A DNA stretch of 26,825 nt from Candidatus Nomurabacteria bacterium. GTDB lineage: Bacteria > Patescibacteriota > Minisyncoccia > Phycocordibacterales > UBA9973. Under the pieces are notes generated by a model. The model saw nothing but the letters and a program-made list of their open reading frames with translations, did not search any database and was not told the origin of the DNA. The translations under genes were made by a program, and so were the position numbers. Below are positions 22,563 to 26,825 of this stretch, piece by piece. The stretch is from contig CALRFE010000001.1 of assembly GCA_943356425.1 (NCBI GenBank), forward strand, positions 1-26,825. The letters are read 5' to 3'. The stretch's first letter is position 1. The number at the start of each line of letters is the position of its first letter.

Positions 22563-22892
22563 ATGGTTGACCTCAAAAAACTCCAAGAAGAAGTCATGCG
22601 CAACAAGCTCGAAAAGGGCTTTAATACGACCGATGTCGCACTCGAATTTTGTCGTGCGCACGAGGAGCTTTCAGAAGCATTTTCAAAATTCAACAAGAAT
22701 CAAGACGGCGTTGCCGAAGAGTTCGCCGATGTCGCGATCTTTCTGCTCGGCATGTGCGAGATATTGGGGTATGACCTTGAAAAAGAATTAGTTGCAAAGA
22801 TTGAAACAAATAAGAATCGAAAATACAAAAAATCAAAATCACCAGACGGAAAAGATATTTTCATTCGAGAGCGGACGGCAATCGATCCGTAA
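22563..22892 (+). CDS. MazG-like all-alpha NTP pyrophosphohydrolase
   Basis: EELSEAF...EEFADVAIFLL acidic metal motif, followed by LEKELVAKIETNKNRKY. Confidence 0.85.
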   Translation: MVDLKKLQEEVMRNKLEKGFNTTDVALEFCRAHEELSEAFSKFNKNQDGVAEEFADVAIFLLGMCEILGYDLEKELVAKIETNKNRKYKKSKSPDGKDIFIRERTAIDP

Positions 22893-22991: not shown

Positions 22992-23684
22992 ATGAAGTAC
23001 ATATACAAGAATACGCTTGCGGGCGTCGACATGGACATGGTCCTCACTAATTGGGATGATCCAAAAGGATCATTTATCAATCATTGGAAAACGCATTTCG
23101 GAGACCTAAAATACTTGGGTGTCAAGAAAAGCGCCGTTTGGGATATCGCACAATTGTTTCCGGGGCATGAAAAGAGGCTGGATGATTTTTTCATGAATCC
23201 GCCGCGCGGTTTTTATCTGAATTTACGACCGATGCCGGGAGCGATCGCTGCTGTGAAAAAAATGATGGAAACGATGGAAGTTGTTGCCGTCACTACTCCG
23301 GTCTATGAAGCTGATGATCATACGCTCTCGCTCAATGAGCTTGAGAGTCGTGATCGGCTCTGGTGCCAGGTCGTTGAAGAAAAAAAGGAATGGTTGCGAA
23401 AATATTTCGGCAAAGATGCACCGGTCTTAAATCCGCTCTCTGACAAGACGCTCGCGCATGTTGATTTTCTTATTGACGACAAACCATCTGCCGGACAGAT
23501 CAAACGCAATCATCCCAGTTGGATACATGTGCTCTATGATGATGATTTCTTGTTCAATAAAAATGCAAAGAACCGCTTCAGATTAAATTGGAGGACATGG
23601 GAAGATGTCATGCCTGGCATCTTGAAAGAAGTTGAACGAAGAAAAAAACTTCGCGCGTTCTTTGACCCGCTCGGTCATGCATAA
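22992..23684 (+). CDS. HAD-superfamily 5'(3')-deoxyribonucleotidase (NT5C-like)
   Basis: Motif I VDMDMVL; FYLNLRPMPGA; VTTP; DKT; motif IV LIDDKP; RLNWRTW. Confidence 0.85.
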   Translation: MKYIYKNTLAGVDMDMVLTNWDDPKGSFINHWKTHFGDLKYLGVKKSAVWDIAQLFPGHEKRLDDFFMNPPRGFYLNLRPMPGAIAAVKKMMETMEVVAVTTPVYEADDHTLSLNELESRDRLWCQVVEEKKEWLRKYFGKDAPVLNPLSDKTLAHVDFLIDDKPSAGQIKRNHPSWIHVLYDDDFLFNKNAKNRFRLNWRTWEDVMPGILKEVERRKKLRAFFDPLGHA

Positions 23685-23702: not shown

Positions 23703-23734
23703 AAAAAGCTCTGAGAATATTCTCAGAGCTTTTT
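23703..23734. terminator. 32-bp perfect palindrome, bidirectional terminator overlapping the DHFR stop codon
   Basis: AAAAAGCTCTGAGAAT|ATTCTCAGAGCTTTTT. Confidence 0.8.
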
Positions 23735-24250
23735 TTCATACGTGACGAATGTGTATGGGTAAGGATTTTTTTCGTCACTCGGAAATTTTTCTTCATGTGA
23801 TTTTTCCCATTTGCGCAGATCGATCTCAGGGAAAAAGGTATCTGCGGGAAGTTTTGCGTCCACATGCGTGATGTAGAGCCGGTCGGCGTAGGGAAGTGCT
23901 TCTTCATAAACATGTCCGCCGCCGATAATGAAGATTTCTGATTCTGCAGAATCATGTCGCGCAATGTCCTTTGAAGCGCGACTTTTTGTGTATCGTTCAA
24001 TCGCTTCTTCAAGAGAATGCACAATAATGACACCTTCGCGGAAATACTGCGGATCGCGTGTGATGATAATATTTTCACGATTCGGAAGCGCTCGGCCGAT
24101 GGATTCGAACGTTTTTCGTCCCATGATCACTGGATGACCGCTCGTCGTCTCGCGAAAGTGCTTCATGTCCGCAGGCATCTGCCAGAGGAGCTGGTTATCC
24201 TTGCCGAGTTCGTTATTTTGTCCGATGGCTGCAATTATTGAGAGGATCAT
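23723..24250 (-). CDS. folA: Dihydrofolate reductase
   Basis: LGKDNQLLWQMPADMKHFRETT, VIMGRKTFESIGRALPNRENI, FIIGGG and ADTFFP. The start overlaps the stop of the TS-like gene (ATGA). Confidence 0.97.
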   Translation of the reverse strand: MILSIIAAIGQNNELGKDNQLLWQMPADMKHFRETTSGHPVIMGRKTFESIGRALPNRENIIITRDPQYFREGVIIVHSLEEAIERYTKSRASKDIARHDSAESEIFIIGGGHVYEEALPYADRLYITHVDAKLPADTFFPEIDLRKWEKSHEEKFPSDEKNPYPYTFVTYEKKL

Positions 24251-25083
24251 ACGGCGATACTTAAGCCTTCTATTTGTGGTAATGGATTATACTGCGCCAT
24301 AAGCGGTTCAAGAATTTCCGGCACTAAAGCTTCGTCCATGTTGCACGCGCGATCGTAAGCATTTTCGGGGAGTTTGAGCATGATATTTGTGTGATCATTA
24401 GTTCGACTGACGAGCTCTTTCGCGCCTTCGTAATGATTGTCATAAATATGCGCATTTGAAATTGAGTGCGTGTAAATACCGGGACGGACGCCGAGTTTCT
24501 GAGCGAGAATATTTGCAAGGAGTGAGAAGCCGAGCGTATCGAATGGACAGCCGAGCATCATGTCATTCGAACGGATGATGTTGTGCAGATGTAATCGTCC
24601 GCCAATAATATTTACCGTCCAAGTATATGGGCACGGAACATTTTTTTTAGGAATGCCGCCATAACCATCTTCGCGCGGGTCCCACGTGACGACGACGCCG
24701 TGACGAGATGACGGATCTGCAGTCAAAAGTTTTACCAGTGCATCGAGCTGATCTCTGCCAAATGCATGGCGCCAACGCCAGCCGTATGCCGCTGCAAGTG
24801 TGCCATCGGATTCGAGAAACGGGTCCCACATTTTTGTAAATTTACGCAAGAATTCGTCTGGCTTTTTTGAGCCGCTGATGAACCAGAGTGTTTCGGCAAT
24901 AGGGGACTTTAACGGATTTTTACGGAGCGTGAGGATCGGCAGACCATCTTTTTCAAGATCGATCGAAAAGGTTATCCCAGGAAGTGCCTTGGTTTTTTTA
25001 CCAGTGCGGACGTTCAACTCCTCAATGCCTTCATCAAGAATTTTCCGGATCAAGTCTTTGTACACCTGGTCAAACTTTGTCAT
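24247..25083 (-). CDS. Thymidylate-synthase-family protein with Asp at the Asn177-equivalent site (candidate dCMP methylase)
   Basis: RTG, ETLWF, YGWRWR, catalytic PC151, RSNDMMLGCPFD182 and NAHIY. The thyA symbol is withheld because the specificity residue is not the dUMP-type Asn. Confidence 0.9.
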   Translation of the reverse strand: MTKFDQVYKDLIRKILDEGIEELNVRTGKKTKALPGITFSIDLEKDGLPILTLRKNPLKSPIAETLWFISGSKKPDEFLRKFTKMWDPFLESDGTLAAAYGWRWRHAFGRDQLDALVKLLTADPSSRHGVVVTWDPREDGYGGIPKKNVPCPYTWTVNIIGGRLHLHNIIRSNDMMLGCPFDTLGFSLLANILAQKLGVRPGIYTHSISNAHIYDNHYEGAKELVSRTNDHTNIMLKLPENAYDRACNMDEALVPEILEPLMAQYNPLPQIEGLSIAV

Positions 25084-25090
25084 ATCCTGT

Positions 25091-25098
25091 AGTATACT
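25091..25098. promoter_or_regulatory. Palindromic AGTATACT giving a TATACT -10 on both strands
   Basis: Lies in the 29-nt gap between divergent ATGs, 7 nt from 25083 and 14 nt from 25113. Confidence 0.6.
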
Positions 25099-25112
25099 TA
25101 AAAAACGCCATT

Positions 25113-25643
25113 ATGGAAAACAACACAAAAAACACGATTTCATACCCGTTCTTGCCTCCTGGTAAGAAGATCGAGTATGTCGGGATCGATGATCCATACA
25201 TGCTTCACGCAAAAGAAGTTGCAAGAAAATCAACTGATCACGCTATGCCGACTGGAGCAGTCATTACTTGTGACGGGATCATCATTGCTGAGGCTTCAAA
25301 TAAAGCAGCATTGACCAATCCGACGCTCATTAAATTGCACAAGAAATATTGTATTCGCCGAATGTGTAATATCCCGACGGGTAAAAAATATTGGGCTTGT
25401 CCTGGCTGTGCGTCGCACGAAAATCATGGCGAGTACCGCGCCGTTCTTATGGCGCTCAAAAAATTACCGAAGGAATATGATGAACTCGATCTCTATTTAT
25501 GGGGGCACTGGTGGTGTTGCGAACCGTGCTGGAACAAGATGTTCTCGATCGGTATCAAACGCGTCTTTCTTTTAGAAAAGAGCGAAATATTGTTCAATAA
25601 TAAAGAACCAGGCAATATTATTGGCAAGCAATTGACGCAATAA
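25113..25643 (+). CDS. Zn-dependent cytidine/deoxycytidylate deaminase family protein
   Basis: PTGAVI...ASN, H105-G-E107, C136-E-P-C139, GIKRV, plus a Cys-rich insert. ATG 25113 is preferred because the longer ORF overlaps the TS-like gene. Confidence 0.88.
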   Translation: MENNTKNTISYPFLPPGKKIEYVGIDDPYMLHAKEVARKSTDHAMPTGAVITCDGIIIAEASNKAALTNPTLIKLHKKYCIRRMCNIPTGKKYWACPGCASHENHGEYRAVLMALKKLPKEYDELDLYLWGHWWCCEPCWNKMFSIGIKRVFLLEKSEILFNNKEPGNIIGKQLTQ

Positions 25644-25655
25644 AAACTGTTCTAC

Positions 25656-25695
25656 AAAGCCGATTTTGGTCTCTATAACCAAAATCGGCTTTTTT
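25656..25695 (+). terminator. Intrinsic terminator
   Basis: AAAGCCGATTTTGGT-ctctata-ACCAAAATCGGCTTT followed by further T. Confidence 0.85.
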
Positions 25696-25781: not shown

Positions 25782-26825
25782 ATGAAAGACAAACAAGTAG
25801 AAAAACTCATCAAAGCAGAAATAAAACGTCAAAAGAGCGTTATCAACCTCATCGCTTCTGAAAATTATGTTTCAAAAGATGTTTTAACTGCGCTCGGTTC
25901 TGAGCTTACCAACAAATACGCTGAAGGATATCCAAACCGACGGTATTACGGCGGCAATCAAATTATCGACAAAGTAGAACAGCTCGCTATCGACCGTGCA
26001 CTCAAACTTTTTAAATTAAAACCGCTTGAATGGCATTGCAATGTCCAGCCGCTTTCAGGCTCGCCTGCAAACTTGGCGGTGTATTCTGCGCTTGTTCCGC
26101 TTGGTGGAAAAATTATGGGGATGAAGCTCTCGTCCGGAGGACATCTCACCCACGGACAATCTGTTTCGATGACGGGAAAAATTTGGAAACAAGTGCCGTA
26201 TGAAGTTGACCCACTTACTGAAATTTTAAATTACGATAAACTAATGGCGATCGCACTTGCCGAAAAACCAGACATTATTGTTTGTGGTTTTACTGCGTAT
26301 CCACGTTTTGTTGATTTCAAAAAATTCCGCGAAATCGCAGATGCATCAGGCGCAATTCTCATGGTGGATATGTCACACTTTGCCGGACTCGTTGCAGGTG
26401 GTGTGTATCCATCACCATTTGAATATGCAGATGTTGTAACGACAACCACACACAAGACGTTGCGCGCTGCGCGTTCAGCAATGATCTTCGTGCGCAAAGA
26501 CAAGCGCGAATTTGAAAAAAAGATCGACAAGACGATCATTCCAGGACTCCAAGGCGGTCCACATGAAAACCAGATCGCTGCAGTTGCGGTCGCACTCGGC
26601 GAAGCAATGACTCCGGTGTACAAAAAATATGCTGTACAAATTGTCAAAAATGCAAAAGCGCTCGCCGCCGAACTTCAAAAACTTGGCTGGCGCATTATTT
26701 CCGGCGGGACCGACTCGCATCTTTTACTCGTCGATACTTGGATGAGTGGAAAGTGTGTTGCTGGTAAAGAGGCAAGTGCTCGCCTTGAAAAAGCAGGCAT
26801 CATCGTCAATATGAACACGATCCCG
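25782..26825 (+). CDS. glyA: Serine hydroxymethyltransferase (3'-truncated by the window; not in ORF track)
   Basis: LIASENY, TNKYAEGYPNRRYYGG, QPLSGSPAN, GGHLTHG, DMSHFAGLVAG, TTTHKTLR (PLP Lys), GGTDSH. TATAAT at 25742-25747. Confidence 0.97.
   Translation, partial: MKDKQVEKLIKAEIKRQKSVINLIASENYVSKDVLTALGSELTNKYAEGYPNRRYYGGNQIIDKVEQLAIDRALKLFKLKPLEWHCNVQPLSGSPANLAVYSALVPLGGKIMGMKLSSGGHLTHGQSVSMTGKIWKQVPYEVDPLTEILNYDKLMAIALAEKPDIIVCGFTAYPRFVDFKKFREIADASGAILMVDMSHFAGLVAGGVYPSPFEYADVVTTTTHKTLRAARSAMIFVRKDKREFEKKIDKTIIPGLQGGPHENQIAAVAVALGEAMTPVYKKYAVQIVKNAKALAAELQKLGWRIISGGTDSHLLLVDTWMSGKCVAGKEASARLEKAGIIVNMNTIP

What the first reader, a model, noticed from the sequence alone, without database searches (positions are those of the whole stretch)
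25113..25643. Divergent Zn deaminase, candidate 5-methyl-dCMP-selective enzyme
Seen: catalytic HGE and CEPC motifs are intact, but the canonical HAE and P-C-x-x-C contexts are altered (NHGE, GHWWCCEPCW). There is an N-terminal YPFLPPGKKIEYV extension and an insert with C80, C85, C96, C99 and H102 that could bind a second Zn. Inference: if it deaminated dCMP freely it would drain the TS homolog's substrate into a dead-end dUMP, so selectivity for the 5-methylated nucleotide is predicted. The bulky WW near the Zn site may read the methyl group.
Basis: partly seen in the sequence, partly recalled or inferred. Interest (0 to 1): 0.75.

Follow-up and report, generated by a model that had tools for sequence, protein, structure and literature searches.

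The report
Deaminase finishing a methylate-first thymidylate pathway
This small zinc deaminase of an ultra-small (Patescibacteria) bacterium almost always sits beside a thymidylate-synthase relative built to methylate dCMP instead of dUMP, so it most likely turns a 5-methyl-deoxycytidine nucleotide into thymidylate, the reverse of the textbook order, so far described only for phages.

Summary
The ORF (25113-25643, +, 176 aa) is real. It is a confidently folded CDA-fold zinc deaminase with H105-G-E107 and C136-x-x-C139.

It belongs to a distinct, almost purely Patescibacterial clade. That clade lies outside ComEB/T4-type dCMP deaminases, the deaminases of 5mC phages, and TadA or guanine deaminases.

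- **Family hallmarks:** the N-terminal YP(Y/F)LP segment, G-H-W-W-C-C-x-P-C-W, and a conserved H76/C80/C96/C99 set. C85 and H102 are not conserved. HGE is only a minor variant of HAE/HSE.
- **Gene neighbourhood:** in 79 of the 80 closest species-level loci the gene lies within 6 kb of a thymidylate-synthase homologue (immediately adjacent in 73). That homologue has Asp at E. coli position 177 in 78 of 78 readable cases.
- **Partner enzyme:** this synthase class groups (100/100) with the dCMP methylases of 5mC phages such as Xp12.
- **Module:** it also holds DHFR, SHMT, often thymidylate kinase, and either a MazG-like or a Glu-less Dcd-like enzyme, never both.
- **Own genome (89% complete):** no other thymidylate synthase, ThyX, dUTPase, Dcd or thymidine kinase was found.

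Best reading: dCMP is methylated to 5-methyl-dCMP, and this enzyme deaminates it to dTMP. Selectivity against dCMP and the phosphate level are untested. An earlier follow-up in this scan reached the same pathway reading from the synthase gene.

The parts
25113..25643 (+). Deaminase gene (176 aa), founding member here of a Patescibacterial CDA-fold clade
   Evidence: ORF and translation. PF00383 scores 35.8 bits. More than 1000 homologues were found. AF2 mean pLDDT is 92.8. It forms a separate clade, SH-aLRT 94.
25143..25181 (+). Family-specific N-terminal segment YP(Y/F)LPxG(R/K)xIxYV, residues 11-23
   Evidence: P12 is kept in 78 of 80 aligned loci. pLDDT is about 93 and residues 19-23 form a strand. 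It lies outside all structural alignments.
25338..25409 (+). Insert carrying the conserved H76, C80, C96 and C99: candidate second (structural) metal site
   Evidence: H76 is kept in 79 of 80; C80, C96 and C99 in 80 of 80. C85 is kept in 1 of 80 and H102 in 18 of 80. Metal binding is inferred, not shown.
25425..25433 (+). Catalytic H105-G106-E107 (Zn ligand and proton shuttle)
   Evidence: H and E are invariant. Position 106 is A in 52, G in 14 and S in 14 of 80.
25503..25532 (+). G131-H-W-W-C-C-E-P-C-W140: Zn ligands C136 and C139 preceded by the family hallmark GHWW. The loop is two residues longer than the canonical Y-V-T-x-x-P-C.
   Evidence: G131, H132, W134, C136, C139 and W140 are kept in 80 of 80, and W133 in 78 of 80. 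Compared with the ComEB-type motifs.
25084..25112 (.). 29-nt divergent intergenic region shared with the TS homologue
   Evidence: Coordinates. The head-to-head adjacent arrangement is kept in 73 of 79 loci. One promoter-like site was found on the minus strand, which is no more than chance.
25656..25692 (+). Intrinsic terminator-like hairpin (15-bp stem followed by a T run), 13 nt after the stop codon
24247..25083 (-). Partner: Asp177/Pro147-type thymidylate-synthase homologue, predicted dCMP 5-methyltransferase
   Evidence: PF00303 scores 182 bits. The alignment reads lgcpfD here against lgvpfN in canonical enzymes. It is 34% identical over its full length to the Xp12 enzyme. Tree support is 100/100.
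23723..24250 (-). Dihydrofolate reductase; its start overlaps the TS stop
   Evidence: PF00186 scores 207 bits. It is present in 62 of 80 related loci.
22992..23684 (+). NT5C-like HAD 5'(3')-deoxyribonucleotidase, a rare accessory
   Evidence: PF06941 scores 37 bits. It is found in only 1 of 80 related loci.
22563..22892 (+). MazG-like all-alpha NTP pyrophosphatase (109 aa), candidate (5m)dCTP diphosphatase
   Evidence: PF12643 scores 26.9 bits against a cut-off of 27. Weak PDB matches to 4qgp and 1vmg. Homologues occur in 26 of 80 loci and never together with the Dcd-like gene.
25782..26825 (+). Serine hydroxymethyltransferase (runs off the window)
   Evidence: PF00464 scores 482 bits. It lies downstream in 49 of 80 loci.

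Best explanation
The gene encodes a zinc-dependent hydrolytic deaminase of free deoxynucleotides. Its physiological substrate is a 5-methyl-deoxycytidine nucleotide, most likely 5-methyl-dCMP, and its product is dTMP.

It is the last chemical step of a methylate-first thymidylate pathway, which runs as follows.

1. A MazG-like pyrophosphatase (in relatives, a Glu-less Dcd-like protein) yields dCMP from dCTP.
2. The Asp177/Pro147 TS homologue reductively methylates dCMP with methylene-THF, giving 5-methyl-dCMP and DHF.
3. DHFR and SHMT recycle the folate.
4. This deaminase converts 5-methyl-dCMP to dTMP.
5. Thymidylate kinase, which is in the module in many relatives, takes dTMP onward.

The following is shown: the fold and catalytic motifs, clade distinctness, near-obligate pairing with the TS(D) class, module composition, fusions, and the lack of other detectable dTMP routes. 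The following is inferred: substrate identity, the phosphate level, selectivity against dCMP, a second structural Zn at H76/C80/C96/C99, and any role of W133/W134 near C5.
For: **Fold and motifs**
- Pfam, AF2 model and structural matches.
- Catalytic residues H105, E107, C136 and C139 are invariant.

**Acts on free nucleotides in the thymidylate branch**
- Natural fusions join this family to thymidylate kinase (P0174), DHFR (P0163), a Dcd-like domain (P0161), a nucleoside deoxyribosyltransferase/DNPH1-like domain (P0141, P0145), a P-loop kinase (P0191), HAD (P0218) and HD (P0129).

**Pairing with the Asp-type TS**
- In the 80 closest loci from different species genomes, 79 have a TS within 6 kb.
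- Asp177 is present in 78 of 78 readable cases, with Pro (76) or Leu (3) at position 147.
- 73 of 79 are head-to-head neighbours.
- In an even sample of 401 genomes of the phylum, 19 carry this TS class. All 19 have Asp.
- 17 of those 19 have the deaminase by direct search, and one more has a divergent adjacent deaminase (L018).
- Among the other 382 genomes only one has a clear family member (G383).

**The partner is a dCMP methylase by homology**
- Its best phage matches are Xp12, Mallos, A1432 and RcRudolph. It is 34% identical over its full length to the Xp12 enzyme.
- It shares the VPCP and P-x-D signatures.
- TS(D) plus the phage 5mC enzymes separate from all Asn-type TS at 100/100.
- Positions 177 and 147 are the two residues that discriminate dCMP-acting TS (PMC8670742).
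- The Xp12 enzyme and 5 of 7 metagenomic TS(D) enzymes made 5mdCMP experimentally (bioRxiv 10.1101/2024.12.05.627091).

**Same module in 5mC phages**
- Their order is NTP pyrophosphatase, TS(D), deaminase, DHFR.
- In that preprint, 34 of 56 active deaminases found in cis with TS(D) preferred 5mC.

**No alternative dTMP route seen**
- The own genome has a single PF00303 hit and a single PF00383 hit.
- No ThyX, dUTPase, Dcd, TK or dNK was found.
- 18 of 19 TS(D) genomes lack ThyX.

**Contrast with Asn-type TS genomes of the same phylum**
- They use a real Dcd (with the catalytic Glu) plus Dut, or ComEB-type deaminases.
- In TS(D) modules the Dcd-like protein has Pro at the catalytic Glu in 46 of 46 cases, and it is mutually exclusive with MazG-like: 46 against 26, with 0 having both.
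Against: - There is no biochemical datum for any member of this clade.
- The only purified analogue (mSCD-B5) acts on 5mdCTP and not on 5mdCMP, so the phosphate level is open.
- Classical dCMP deaminases also accept 5-methyl-dCMP (recalled knowledge), so a special selectivity is not required for the pathway to run.
- The loci are phylogenetically related, so the counts overstate independence.
- Exceptions exist:
  - G383 has a family member (39% identity) but no PF00303 hit.
  - Five distant viral-contig members (25-35% identity) have no TS within 5 kb.
  - G274 has TS(D) but only an unrelated deaminase elsewhere in the genome.
  - G370 has a Tmk-ThyX fusion next to the module.
  - G004 also has a ComEB-type deaminase on another contig.
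- Several TS(D) genomes keep a true dUTPase, so dUMP is made there.
- The own genome is 89% complete, and its thymidylate kinase was not found.
- Structure search cannot tell this clade from TadA or guanine deaminase (Z 8-11 for all).
Confidence: 0.68

Rival explanations
1. The pathway is the same, but the deaminase works at the triphosphate level (5-methyl-dCTP to dTTP), like phage mSCD-B5. In that case 5mdCMP is first phosphorylated by the module's Tmk-like or P-loop kinases.
For: - mSCD-B5 is encoded in cis with a TS(D). It deaminated 99% of 5mdCTP and showed no activity on 5mdCMP (bioRxiv 10.1101/2024.12.05.627091, read).
- Fusions of the family with kinases fit a kinase acting before the deaminase as well as one acting after it.
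- CDA-fold enzymes that take dCTP exist among the structural neighbours (PBCV-1 bi-DCD, CDADC1).
Against: - This clade is unrelated in sequence to the Xp12-type deaminases.
- A standing 5mdCTP pool would be incorporated into a cellular chromosome.
- A MazG-like or Dcd-like pyrophosphatase in every complete module is more easily read as keeping cytosine nucleotides at the monophosphate level.
Confidence: 0.17
2. It is an ordinary dCMP deaminase (dCMP to dUMP) feeding a thymidylate synthase that still uses dUMP despite the Asp. The tight pairing would then reflect block inheritance of a module.
For: - PF00383 hit and the JGI name 'deoxycytidylate deaminase'.
- dCMP deaminase next to TS and DHFR is also the layout of Asn-type modules in this phylum and in T4-like phages.
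- Some TS(D) genomes keep a dUTPase.
Against: - Asp177 and loss of His147 are the experimentally established dCMP signature (PMC8670742). The TS groups with the proven Xp12 methylase at 100/100.
- The family was never found next to an Asn-type TS in 79 loci.
- Asn-type genomes use other deaminases or Dcd plus Dut.
- The pair persists through gene-order changes and through MazG-like versus Dcd-like replacement.
- The Dcd-like partner has specifically lost its deaminating Glu.
Confidence: 0.1
3. It has a non-thymidylate role: a tRNA adenosine deaminase (TadA), a guanine or riboflavin-pathway deaminase, or a 5-hydroxymethyl-dCMP deaminase for DNA hypermodification.
For: - It is the only PF00383 protein found in the own genome, so no TadA is seen.
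- The best structural Z-scores are to guanine deaminase and TadA.
Against: - Z-scores are tied with those of dCMP deaminases.
- The TadA motif (TLEPCxMC, seen in L157) is absent.
- All fusions and neighbours are deoxynucleotide or folate enzymes.
- DHFR in the module argues for reductive methylation and against hydroxymethylation.
- 12 of 40 genomes of the phylum have no PF00383 protein at all, so TadA is often lacking there.
Confidence: 0.04

Closest known systems
Methylation-selective cytidine deaminases (mSCD, e.g. mSCD-B5) and the 'dCMP deaminase' of 5mC phages Xp12, Mallos and RcRudolph
   Same: - CDA-fold Zn deaminase encoded next to an Asp177 TS homologue, a DHFR and an NTP pyrophosphatase.
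- Proposed role: making thymidine nucleotides from 5-methyl-dC nucleotides (bioRxiv 10.1101/2024.12.05.627091).
   Different: - No detectable sequence similarity beyond the CxxC helix, and no hit in 50,697 phage records.
- The phage enzymes branch with ComEB-type deaminases, whereas this clade branches apart.
- The host here is a cell, and the module sits between nusG-rplK and glyA in about half of the loci.
- The phages use the pathway alongside full 5mC substitution of their DNA. That is not known here.
Canonical dCMP deaminases (ComEB, human DCTD, T4 Cd; PDB 2HVV, 2W4L, 1VQ2)
   Same: - Same fold (Z 8.4-9.6).
- H-x-E and C-x-x-C zinc site, a conserved Asn after strand 2 (N63), a Tyr before the Cys motif (Y128), and a Cys/His-rich insert before H-x-E. 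In T4 and S. mutans enzymes that insert holds a structural Zn (recalled knowledge, not tested here).
- Thymidylate-pathway context.
   Different: - Not nested in that clade, and no NCBIfam equivalog hit.
- No phmmer hit to any PDB chain below E = 0.27.
- A longer insert with different ligand spacing, GHWWCC instead of T-x-x-P-C, and an extra N-terminal segment.
- The partner TS is Asp-type.
Xp12-type deoxycytidylate 5-methyltransferase module (as a system)
   Same: The four functions are the same: NTP pyrophosphatase, TS(D), deaminase and DHFR. The TS is homologous (34% identity; tree).
   Different: - This is a cellular housekeeping locus with SHMT and often Tmk.
- The pyrophosphatase slot is filled by either a MazG-like or a Glu-less Dcd-like protein.
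- The deaminase is of a different clade.
CDA-fold dCTP deaminases (PBCV-1 bi-DCD, vertebrate CDADC1)
   Same: Structural neighbours (Z 9.5 and 7.2). They show that the fold can take triphosphates.
   Different: There is no specific sequence relationship. They act on unmethylated dC nucleotides.

Membership tests
CDA-fold zinc deaminase superfamily (Pfam PF00383) | H/C-x-E motif and (P)C-x-x-C motif supplying three Zn ligands and the catalytic Glu | tested here: met
   H105, E107, C136 and C139 are invariant in 52 diverse and 80 close members.
CDA-fold zinc deaminase superfamily (Pfam PF00383) | Profile score above the curated cut-off, and the fold | tested here: met
   35.8 bits against a cut-off of 25. 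AF2 pLDDT is 92.8. Z is 8-11 to many CDA-fold structures.
Canonical dCMP deaminase (ComEB/DCTD/T4 Cd) | Branches within the ComEB/T4-type clade, or matches the NCBIfam equivalog | tested here: not met
   No NCBIfam hit. The family forms its own branch (SH-aLRT 94) outside the ComEB plus Xp12-type clade. The tree was a quick search on short, divergent sequences.
Canonical dCMP deaminase (ComEB/DCTD/T4 Cd) | G-Y-N-G and Y-V-T-x-x-P-C-x-x-C motifs | tested here: not met
   Only N63 and Y128 are kept. The motif here is Y-L-W-G-H-W-W-C-C-x-P-C.
Canonical dCMP deaminase (ComEB/DCTD/T4 Cd) | Second, structural Zn in the insert before H-x-E | tested here: inconclusive
   H76, C80, C96 and C99 are conserved. 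However, the spacing differs from ComEB-type, no coordinates were available, and metal content is not testable here.
Canonical dCMP deaminase (ComEB/DCTD/T4 Cd) | Catalyses dCMP to dUMP, with dCTP/dTTP allostery | not testable with these tools
   Needs an enzyme assay.
5mC-selective deaminases of TS(D) modules (mSCD, functional class) | Encoded in cis with a TS homologue carrying Asp at E. coli position 177 | tested here: met
   79 of 80 loci have a TS, with Asp in 78 of 78 readable cases. The window has it itself.
5mC-selective deaminases of TS(D) modules (mSCD, functional class) | Sequence relatedness to mSCD-B5 or the Xp12-type deaminases | tested here: not met
   The preprint itself calls the trait polyphyletic. 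The mSCD-B5 sequence itself was not available, so the Xp12, Mallos and RcRudolph deaminases were used.
5mC-selective deaminases of TS(D) modules (mSCD, functional class) | Preference for 5-methyl (or 5-hydroxymethyl) cytosine substrates over cytosine | not testable with these tools
   Needs kinetics on dCMP, 5mdCMP, dCTP and 5mdCTP.
TadA / guanine deaminase | T/S-x-E-P-C-x-M-C motif and an RNA or purine context | tested here: not met
   The motif is absent. Compare L157 and L158 of the same phylum. The context and the fusions are all deoxynucleotide or folate enzymes.

The most novel reading that the evidence does not exclude
These Patescibacteria not only make thymidylate without dUMP, but also carry 5-methylcytosine in place of much or all cytosine in their chromosomes, as phage Xp12 does. 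The MazG-like or Glu-less Dcd-like enzyme would act as a dCTPase that excludes dCTP, and the deaminase would divert only part of the 5-methyl-dC pool to thymidine. This would be the first cellular genome with a wholesale base substitution.
Probability: 0.07. Interest if true: 0.95.

Novelty: new variant of a known kind. Interest (0 to 1): 0.72.

Why it matters
In textbook biochemistry every cell makes dTMP by methylating dUMP, with ThyA or ThyX. Here a whole set of Patescibacterial lineages appears to have only a dCMP-methylating synthase plus this dedicated deaminase. The set comprises 362 species-level genomes with a relative of this deaminase, and about 5% of a phylum-wide sample. In these lineages thymine would be made by methylating first and deaminating second, without dUMP as an intermediate.

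That order is documented only for 5mC phages, in a 2024 preprint. I found no paper describing it in a cellular organism.

- **Metabolism.** It bears on how reduced genomes avoid uracil in DNA.
- **Evolution.** It bears on where phage 5mC modules come from, or go to.
- **Drug logic.** It bears on antifolate and fluoropyrimidine action.
- **Technology.** 5mC-selective deaminases are wanted for bisulfite-free methylome sequencing. This clade is a new, sequence-unrelated source of candidates.

Tried and rejected
- **Sequence search of the PDB** gave nothing below E = 0.27.
- **Fold searches.** Foldseek and VIA-align found only the generic CDA fold, with guanine deaminase, TadA and dCMP deaminases tied. 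Fold search therefore cannot assign the substrate.
- **'HGE' as a marker** was rejected. It is a minority state in the family, and it also occurs in ComEB-type enzymes.
- **C85 and H102 as metal ligands** were rejected on conservation.
- **A depleted-dUTPase signature** for TS(D) genomes was looked for and not found. Several of them have a true Dut. The dUTPase-family hits next to the module turned out to be the Glu-less Dcd-like protein.
- **Phage origin of the deaminase** is not supported. There was no hit in INPHARED. There were only five distant hits in IMG/VR, none with a TS nearby.
- **The first genome-contig scan**, with the diverse alignment A1, failed for lack of a conserved stretch. 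It was redone with A2.
- **P0124**, a 962-aa 'homologue' with 17 repeats, is an assembly artefact.
- **Literature.** Searches for a cellular dCMP-methylase pathway, and for the structural Zn of dCMP deaminases, found nothing citable. The preprint's supplements are not held.
- **No T4 gp42-type hydroxymethylase** was included in the TS tree. Methylase versus hydroxymethylase therefore rests on the grouping with Xp12, on DHFR linkage and on the cell's need for dTMP.
Full report
**What is there**

The window is contig 1 of a 647-kb, 71-contig genome that is 89% complete. The genes on it are those of an ultra-small Patescibacterium: nusG, rplK, class I ribonucleotide reductase and an ABC exporter.

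The flagged ORF (25113-25643, +) gives 176 residues. It starts at the ATG that matches the N-termini of its homologues. It ends 13 nt before a 15-bp-stem terminator-like hairpin.

It scores 35.8 bits on PF00383. It matches no NCBIfam model and no PDB chain below E = 0.27. An AlphaFold2 model built on 52 homologues is confident, with mean pLDDT 92.8. The model is a CDA fold. Z-scores of 8-11 are tied among guanine deaminase, TadA and dCMP deaminases, so the fold alone does not give the substrate.

**The observation**

Conservation refines them.

- H105, E107, C136 and C139 are invariant.
- Position 106 is Ala in 52, Gly in 14 and Ser in 14 of 80. HGE is therefore ordinary variation, and it also occurs in ComEB-type enzymes of the phylum.
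- The block G131-H-W-W-C-C-x-P-C-W140 is a hallmark, as is the N-terminal YP(Y/F)LP segment. That segment lies outside every structural alignment.
- In the insert, H76, C80, C96 and C99 are conserved in 79-80 of 80. C85 (1 of 80) and H102 (18 of 80) are not. If there is a second metal site, its ligands are H76/C80/C96/C99. This is inference, because no coordinates or metal data were available.

**Which family**

More than 1000 homologues at 90% clustering are almost all from Patescibacteria. Only 230 clusters at 50% identity are reachable by phmmer in 1.8 billion representatives.

In a quick ML tree the family is one branch (SH-aLRT 94). It lies outside a clade that unites ComEB-type dCMP deaminases with the deaminases of 5mC phages, and outside TadA/guanine-deaminase-like and cytidine-deaminase-like proteins of the same phylum. 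It is therefore a new clade of the superfamily, not a member of the canonical dCMP deaminase family.

**It works on deoxynucleotides of the thymidylate branch**

Natural fusions join this domain to several enzymes:

- thymidylate kinase
- DHFR
- a Dcd-like domain
- a nucleoside-deoxyribosyltransferase/DNPH1-like domain
- a P-loop kinase
- HAD and HD hydrolases

**The partner**

The divergently transcribed neighbour (24247-25083, -) is the only PF00303 protein of the genome.

- Against solved thymidylate synthases it reads l-g-c-p-f-D where they read l-g-v-p-f-N (E. coli N177). It has V-P-C-P where they have P-P-C-H (H147).
- These are the two positions that separate dCMP-acting from dUMP-acting enzymes (PMC8670742).
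- Its best phage matches are Xp12, Mallos, A1432 and RcRudolph. It is 34% identical over its full length to the Xp12 enzyme.
- In an ML tree, 19 Patescibacterial Asp-type enzymes plus three 5mC-phage enzymes separate from 15 Asn-type enzymes with 100/100 support.
- The Xp12 enzyme and 5 of 7 metagenomic Asp-type enzymes produced 5mdCMP experimentally (bioRxiv 10.1101/2024.12.05.627091).

**The pairing**

A scan of 185,579 species genomes found 362 with a relative of the deaminase. In the best 80 loci:

| Feature | Count |
|---|---|
| TS within 6 kb | 79 of 80 |
| Asp at position 177 | 78 of 78 readable |
| Position 147 | Pro 76, Leu 3 |
| Head-to-head neighbours | 73 of 79 |

In an even sample of 401 genomes of the phylum, 196 have a PF00303 hit. 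Genome G154, flagged as unpublished, enters only this tally.

- 19 genomes have the Asp class.
- 17 of these 19 have the deaminase by direct search. One more has a divergent adjacent deaminase (L018).
- Among the remaining 382, only G383 has a clear family member.
- Relatives are not independent. Even so, the pair persists through changes of gene order, separation onto other contigs and replacement of neighbouring genes.

**The module**

| Gene near the pair | Loci of 80 |
|---|---|
| DHFR | 62 |
| SHMT | 49 |
| Thymidylate kinase | 15 |
| rplK / nusG upstream | 50 / 43 |

The rplK and nusG counts argue for a chromosomal, not prophage, location.

Every locus that is not truncated has exactly one of two candidate NTP pyrophosphatases. 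A MazG-like protein occurs in 26 loci. A Dcd-family protein occurs in 46 loci. No locus has both, and the 8 loci with neither are cut by contig ends.

The Dcd-like protein has Pro in place of the deaminating Glu in 46 of 46 cases. Asn-type-TS genomes of the phylum instead carry a normal Dcd with the Glu, plus a dUTPase, or ComEB-type deaminases next to ThyA.

The 5mC phages have the same four functions side by side: a PRA-PH/MazG pyrophosphatase, TS(D), a deaminase and DHFR.

**No other route to dTMP was found**

The own genome shows no ThyX, dUTPase, Dcd, thymidine kinase or deoxynucleoside kinase. Thymidylate kinase was also not found. That is most simply explained by the missing 11% of the genome. 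Of the 19 Asp-type genomes, 18 lack ThyX.

**Mechanism proposed**

1. dCTP is cut to dCMP by the MazG-like or Dcd-like enzyme.
2. dCMP is reductively methylated by the Asp-type synthase, giving 5-methyl-dCMP and DHF.
3. DHF is recycled by DHFR and SHMT.
4. 5-methyl-dCMP is hydrolytically deaminated at C4 by this enzyme, giving dTMP. The chemistry uses a Zn-bound hydroxide held by H105, C136 and C139, with E107 as proton shuttle.
5. Tmk continues from dTMP.

The steps shown are the motifs, the fold, the pairing and the module content. The steps inferred are the substrate, its phosphate level and its selectivity.

Free deamination of dCMP would make dead-end dUMP in a cell without a dUMP-using synthase. 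However, several Asp-type genomes keep a dUTPase, so some dUMP is tolerated or disposed of. The rare NT5C-like nucleotidase in this window, and the DNPH1-like fusions, may serve that purpose; this is speculative.

Whether W133 and W134 contact the 5-methyl group could not be examined.

**Rivals**

- **Triphosphate-level deamination, as in mSCD-B5 (0.17).** This is a real alternative.
- **A plain dCMP deaminase (0.10).** This conflicts with the partner's signature and phylogeny, and with the absence of the family beside Asn-type synthases.
- **TadA, guanine, riboflavin or 5hm roles (0.04).** These conflict with context and fusions.

**Exceptions**

These are recorded in the Against line and involve G383, G274, G370, G004 and the viral-contig members.

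**Novelty**

5mC-selective deaminases in cis with Asp-type synthases were reported for phages in 2024, and the trait was called polyphyletic. This clade is sequence-unrelated to them and is cellular.

The module looks like the sole thymidylate route of its hosts. I found no paper describing that.

An earlier follow-up in this scan, on the synthase gene of this same window, reached the same pathway reading. My tests were made independently of its withheld report.

Noticed in passing
L023:5583-6236 (-) and 45 other loci among L077-L156: A Dcd-family protein (PF22769, 123 bits) has Pro in place of the catalytic Glu of dCTP deaminase in 46 of 46 cases, plus a conserved C-terminal extension. It is strictly exclusive with the MazG-like gene in TS(D) modules. 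It is a candidate non-deaminating (5m)dCTP diphosphatase.
   Followed up: partly
window 22563-22892 (+): A 109-aa MazG-like all-alpha pyrophosphatase scores borderline on Pfam (26.9 bits against a cut-off of 27). Homologues sit in the same slot in 26 of 80 related loci.
   Followed up: partly
window 22992-23684 (+): An NT5C-like HAD deoxyribonucleotidase lies between the MazG-like gene and DHFR. It is present in only 1 of 80 related loci, so it is an accessory of this lineage. It may dispose of dUMP.
   Followed up: no
L023:8182-10542 (+) (genome G370): A 786-aa fusion of thymidylate kinase with two ThyX-like domains lies directly downstream of the deaminase. It is the only ThyX hit among the 19 TS(D) genomes, and its substrate is unknown.
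   Followed up: no
L031:7995-9050 (+) (genome G274): In the one TS(D) module without a family deaminase, the slot after the Dcd-like gene holds a 351-aa protein with a faint PF00303 match (E = 1e-4). A different deaminase lies on another contig (L163).
   Followed up: partly
table (e.g. G001, G046, G051, G056, G076, G098): Many genomes of the phylum have only a very weak PF00303 match (E = 1e-13 to 1e-20). This is a third, highly divergent TS-like class that was not examined. A middle class (E = 1e-45 to 1e-68, L054-L065) keeps Asn177.
   Followed up: partly
own genome: The deaminase is the only PF00383 protein found in the own genome, and 12 of 40 genomes of the phylum have none. A TadA-type tRNA deaminase therefore seems to be commonly missing.
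   Followed up: no
G004:C81:5395-5736 (L162): One TS(D) genome also has a ComEB-type dCMP deaminase and a dUTPase-family hit on another contig. This may be contamination, a mobile element or a true second route.
   Followed up: no
L053:3219-3992 (phage Xp12): The Xp12 gene annotated as 'hydrolase (HAD superfamily)' upstream of its TS scores as PRA-PH (an all-alpha NTP pyrophosphatase, 55.7 bits), not as HAD.
   Followed up: yes
P0124: A 962-aa database 'protein' consists of 17 tandem copies of a fragment of this family. It is almost certainly an assembly artefact.
   Followed up: yes
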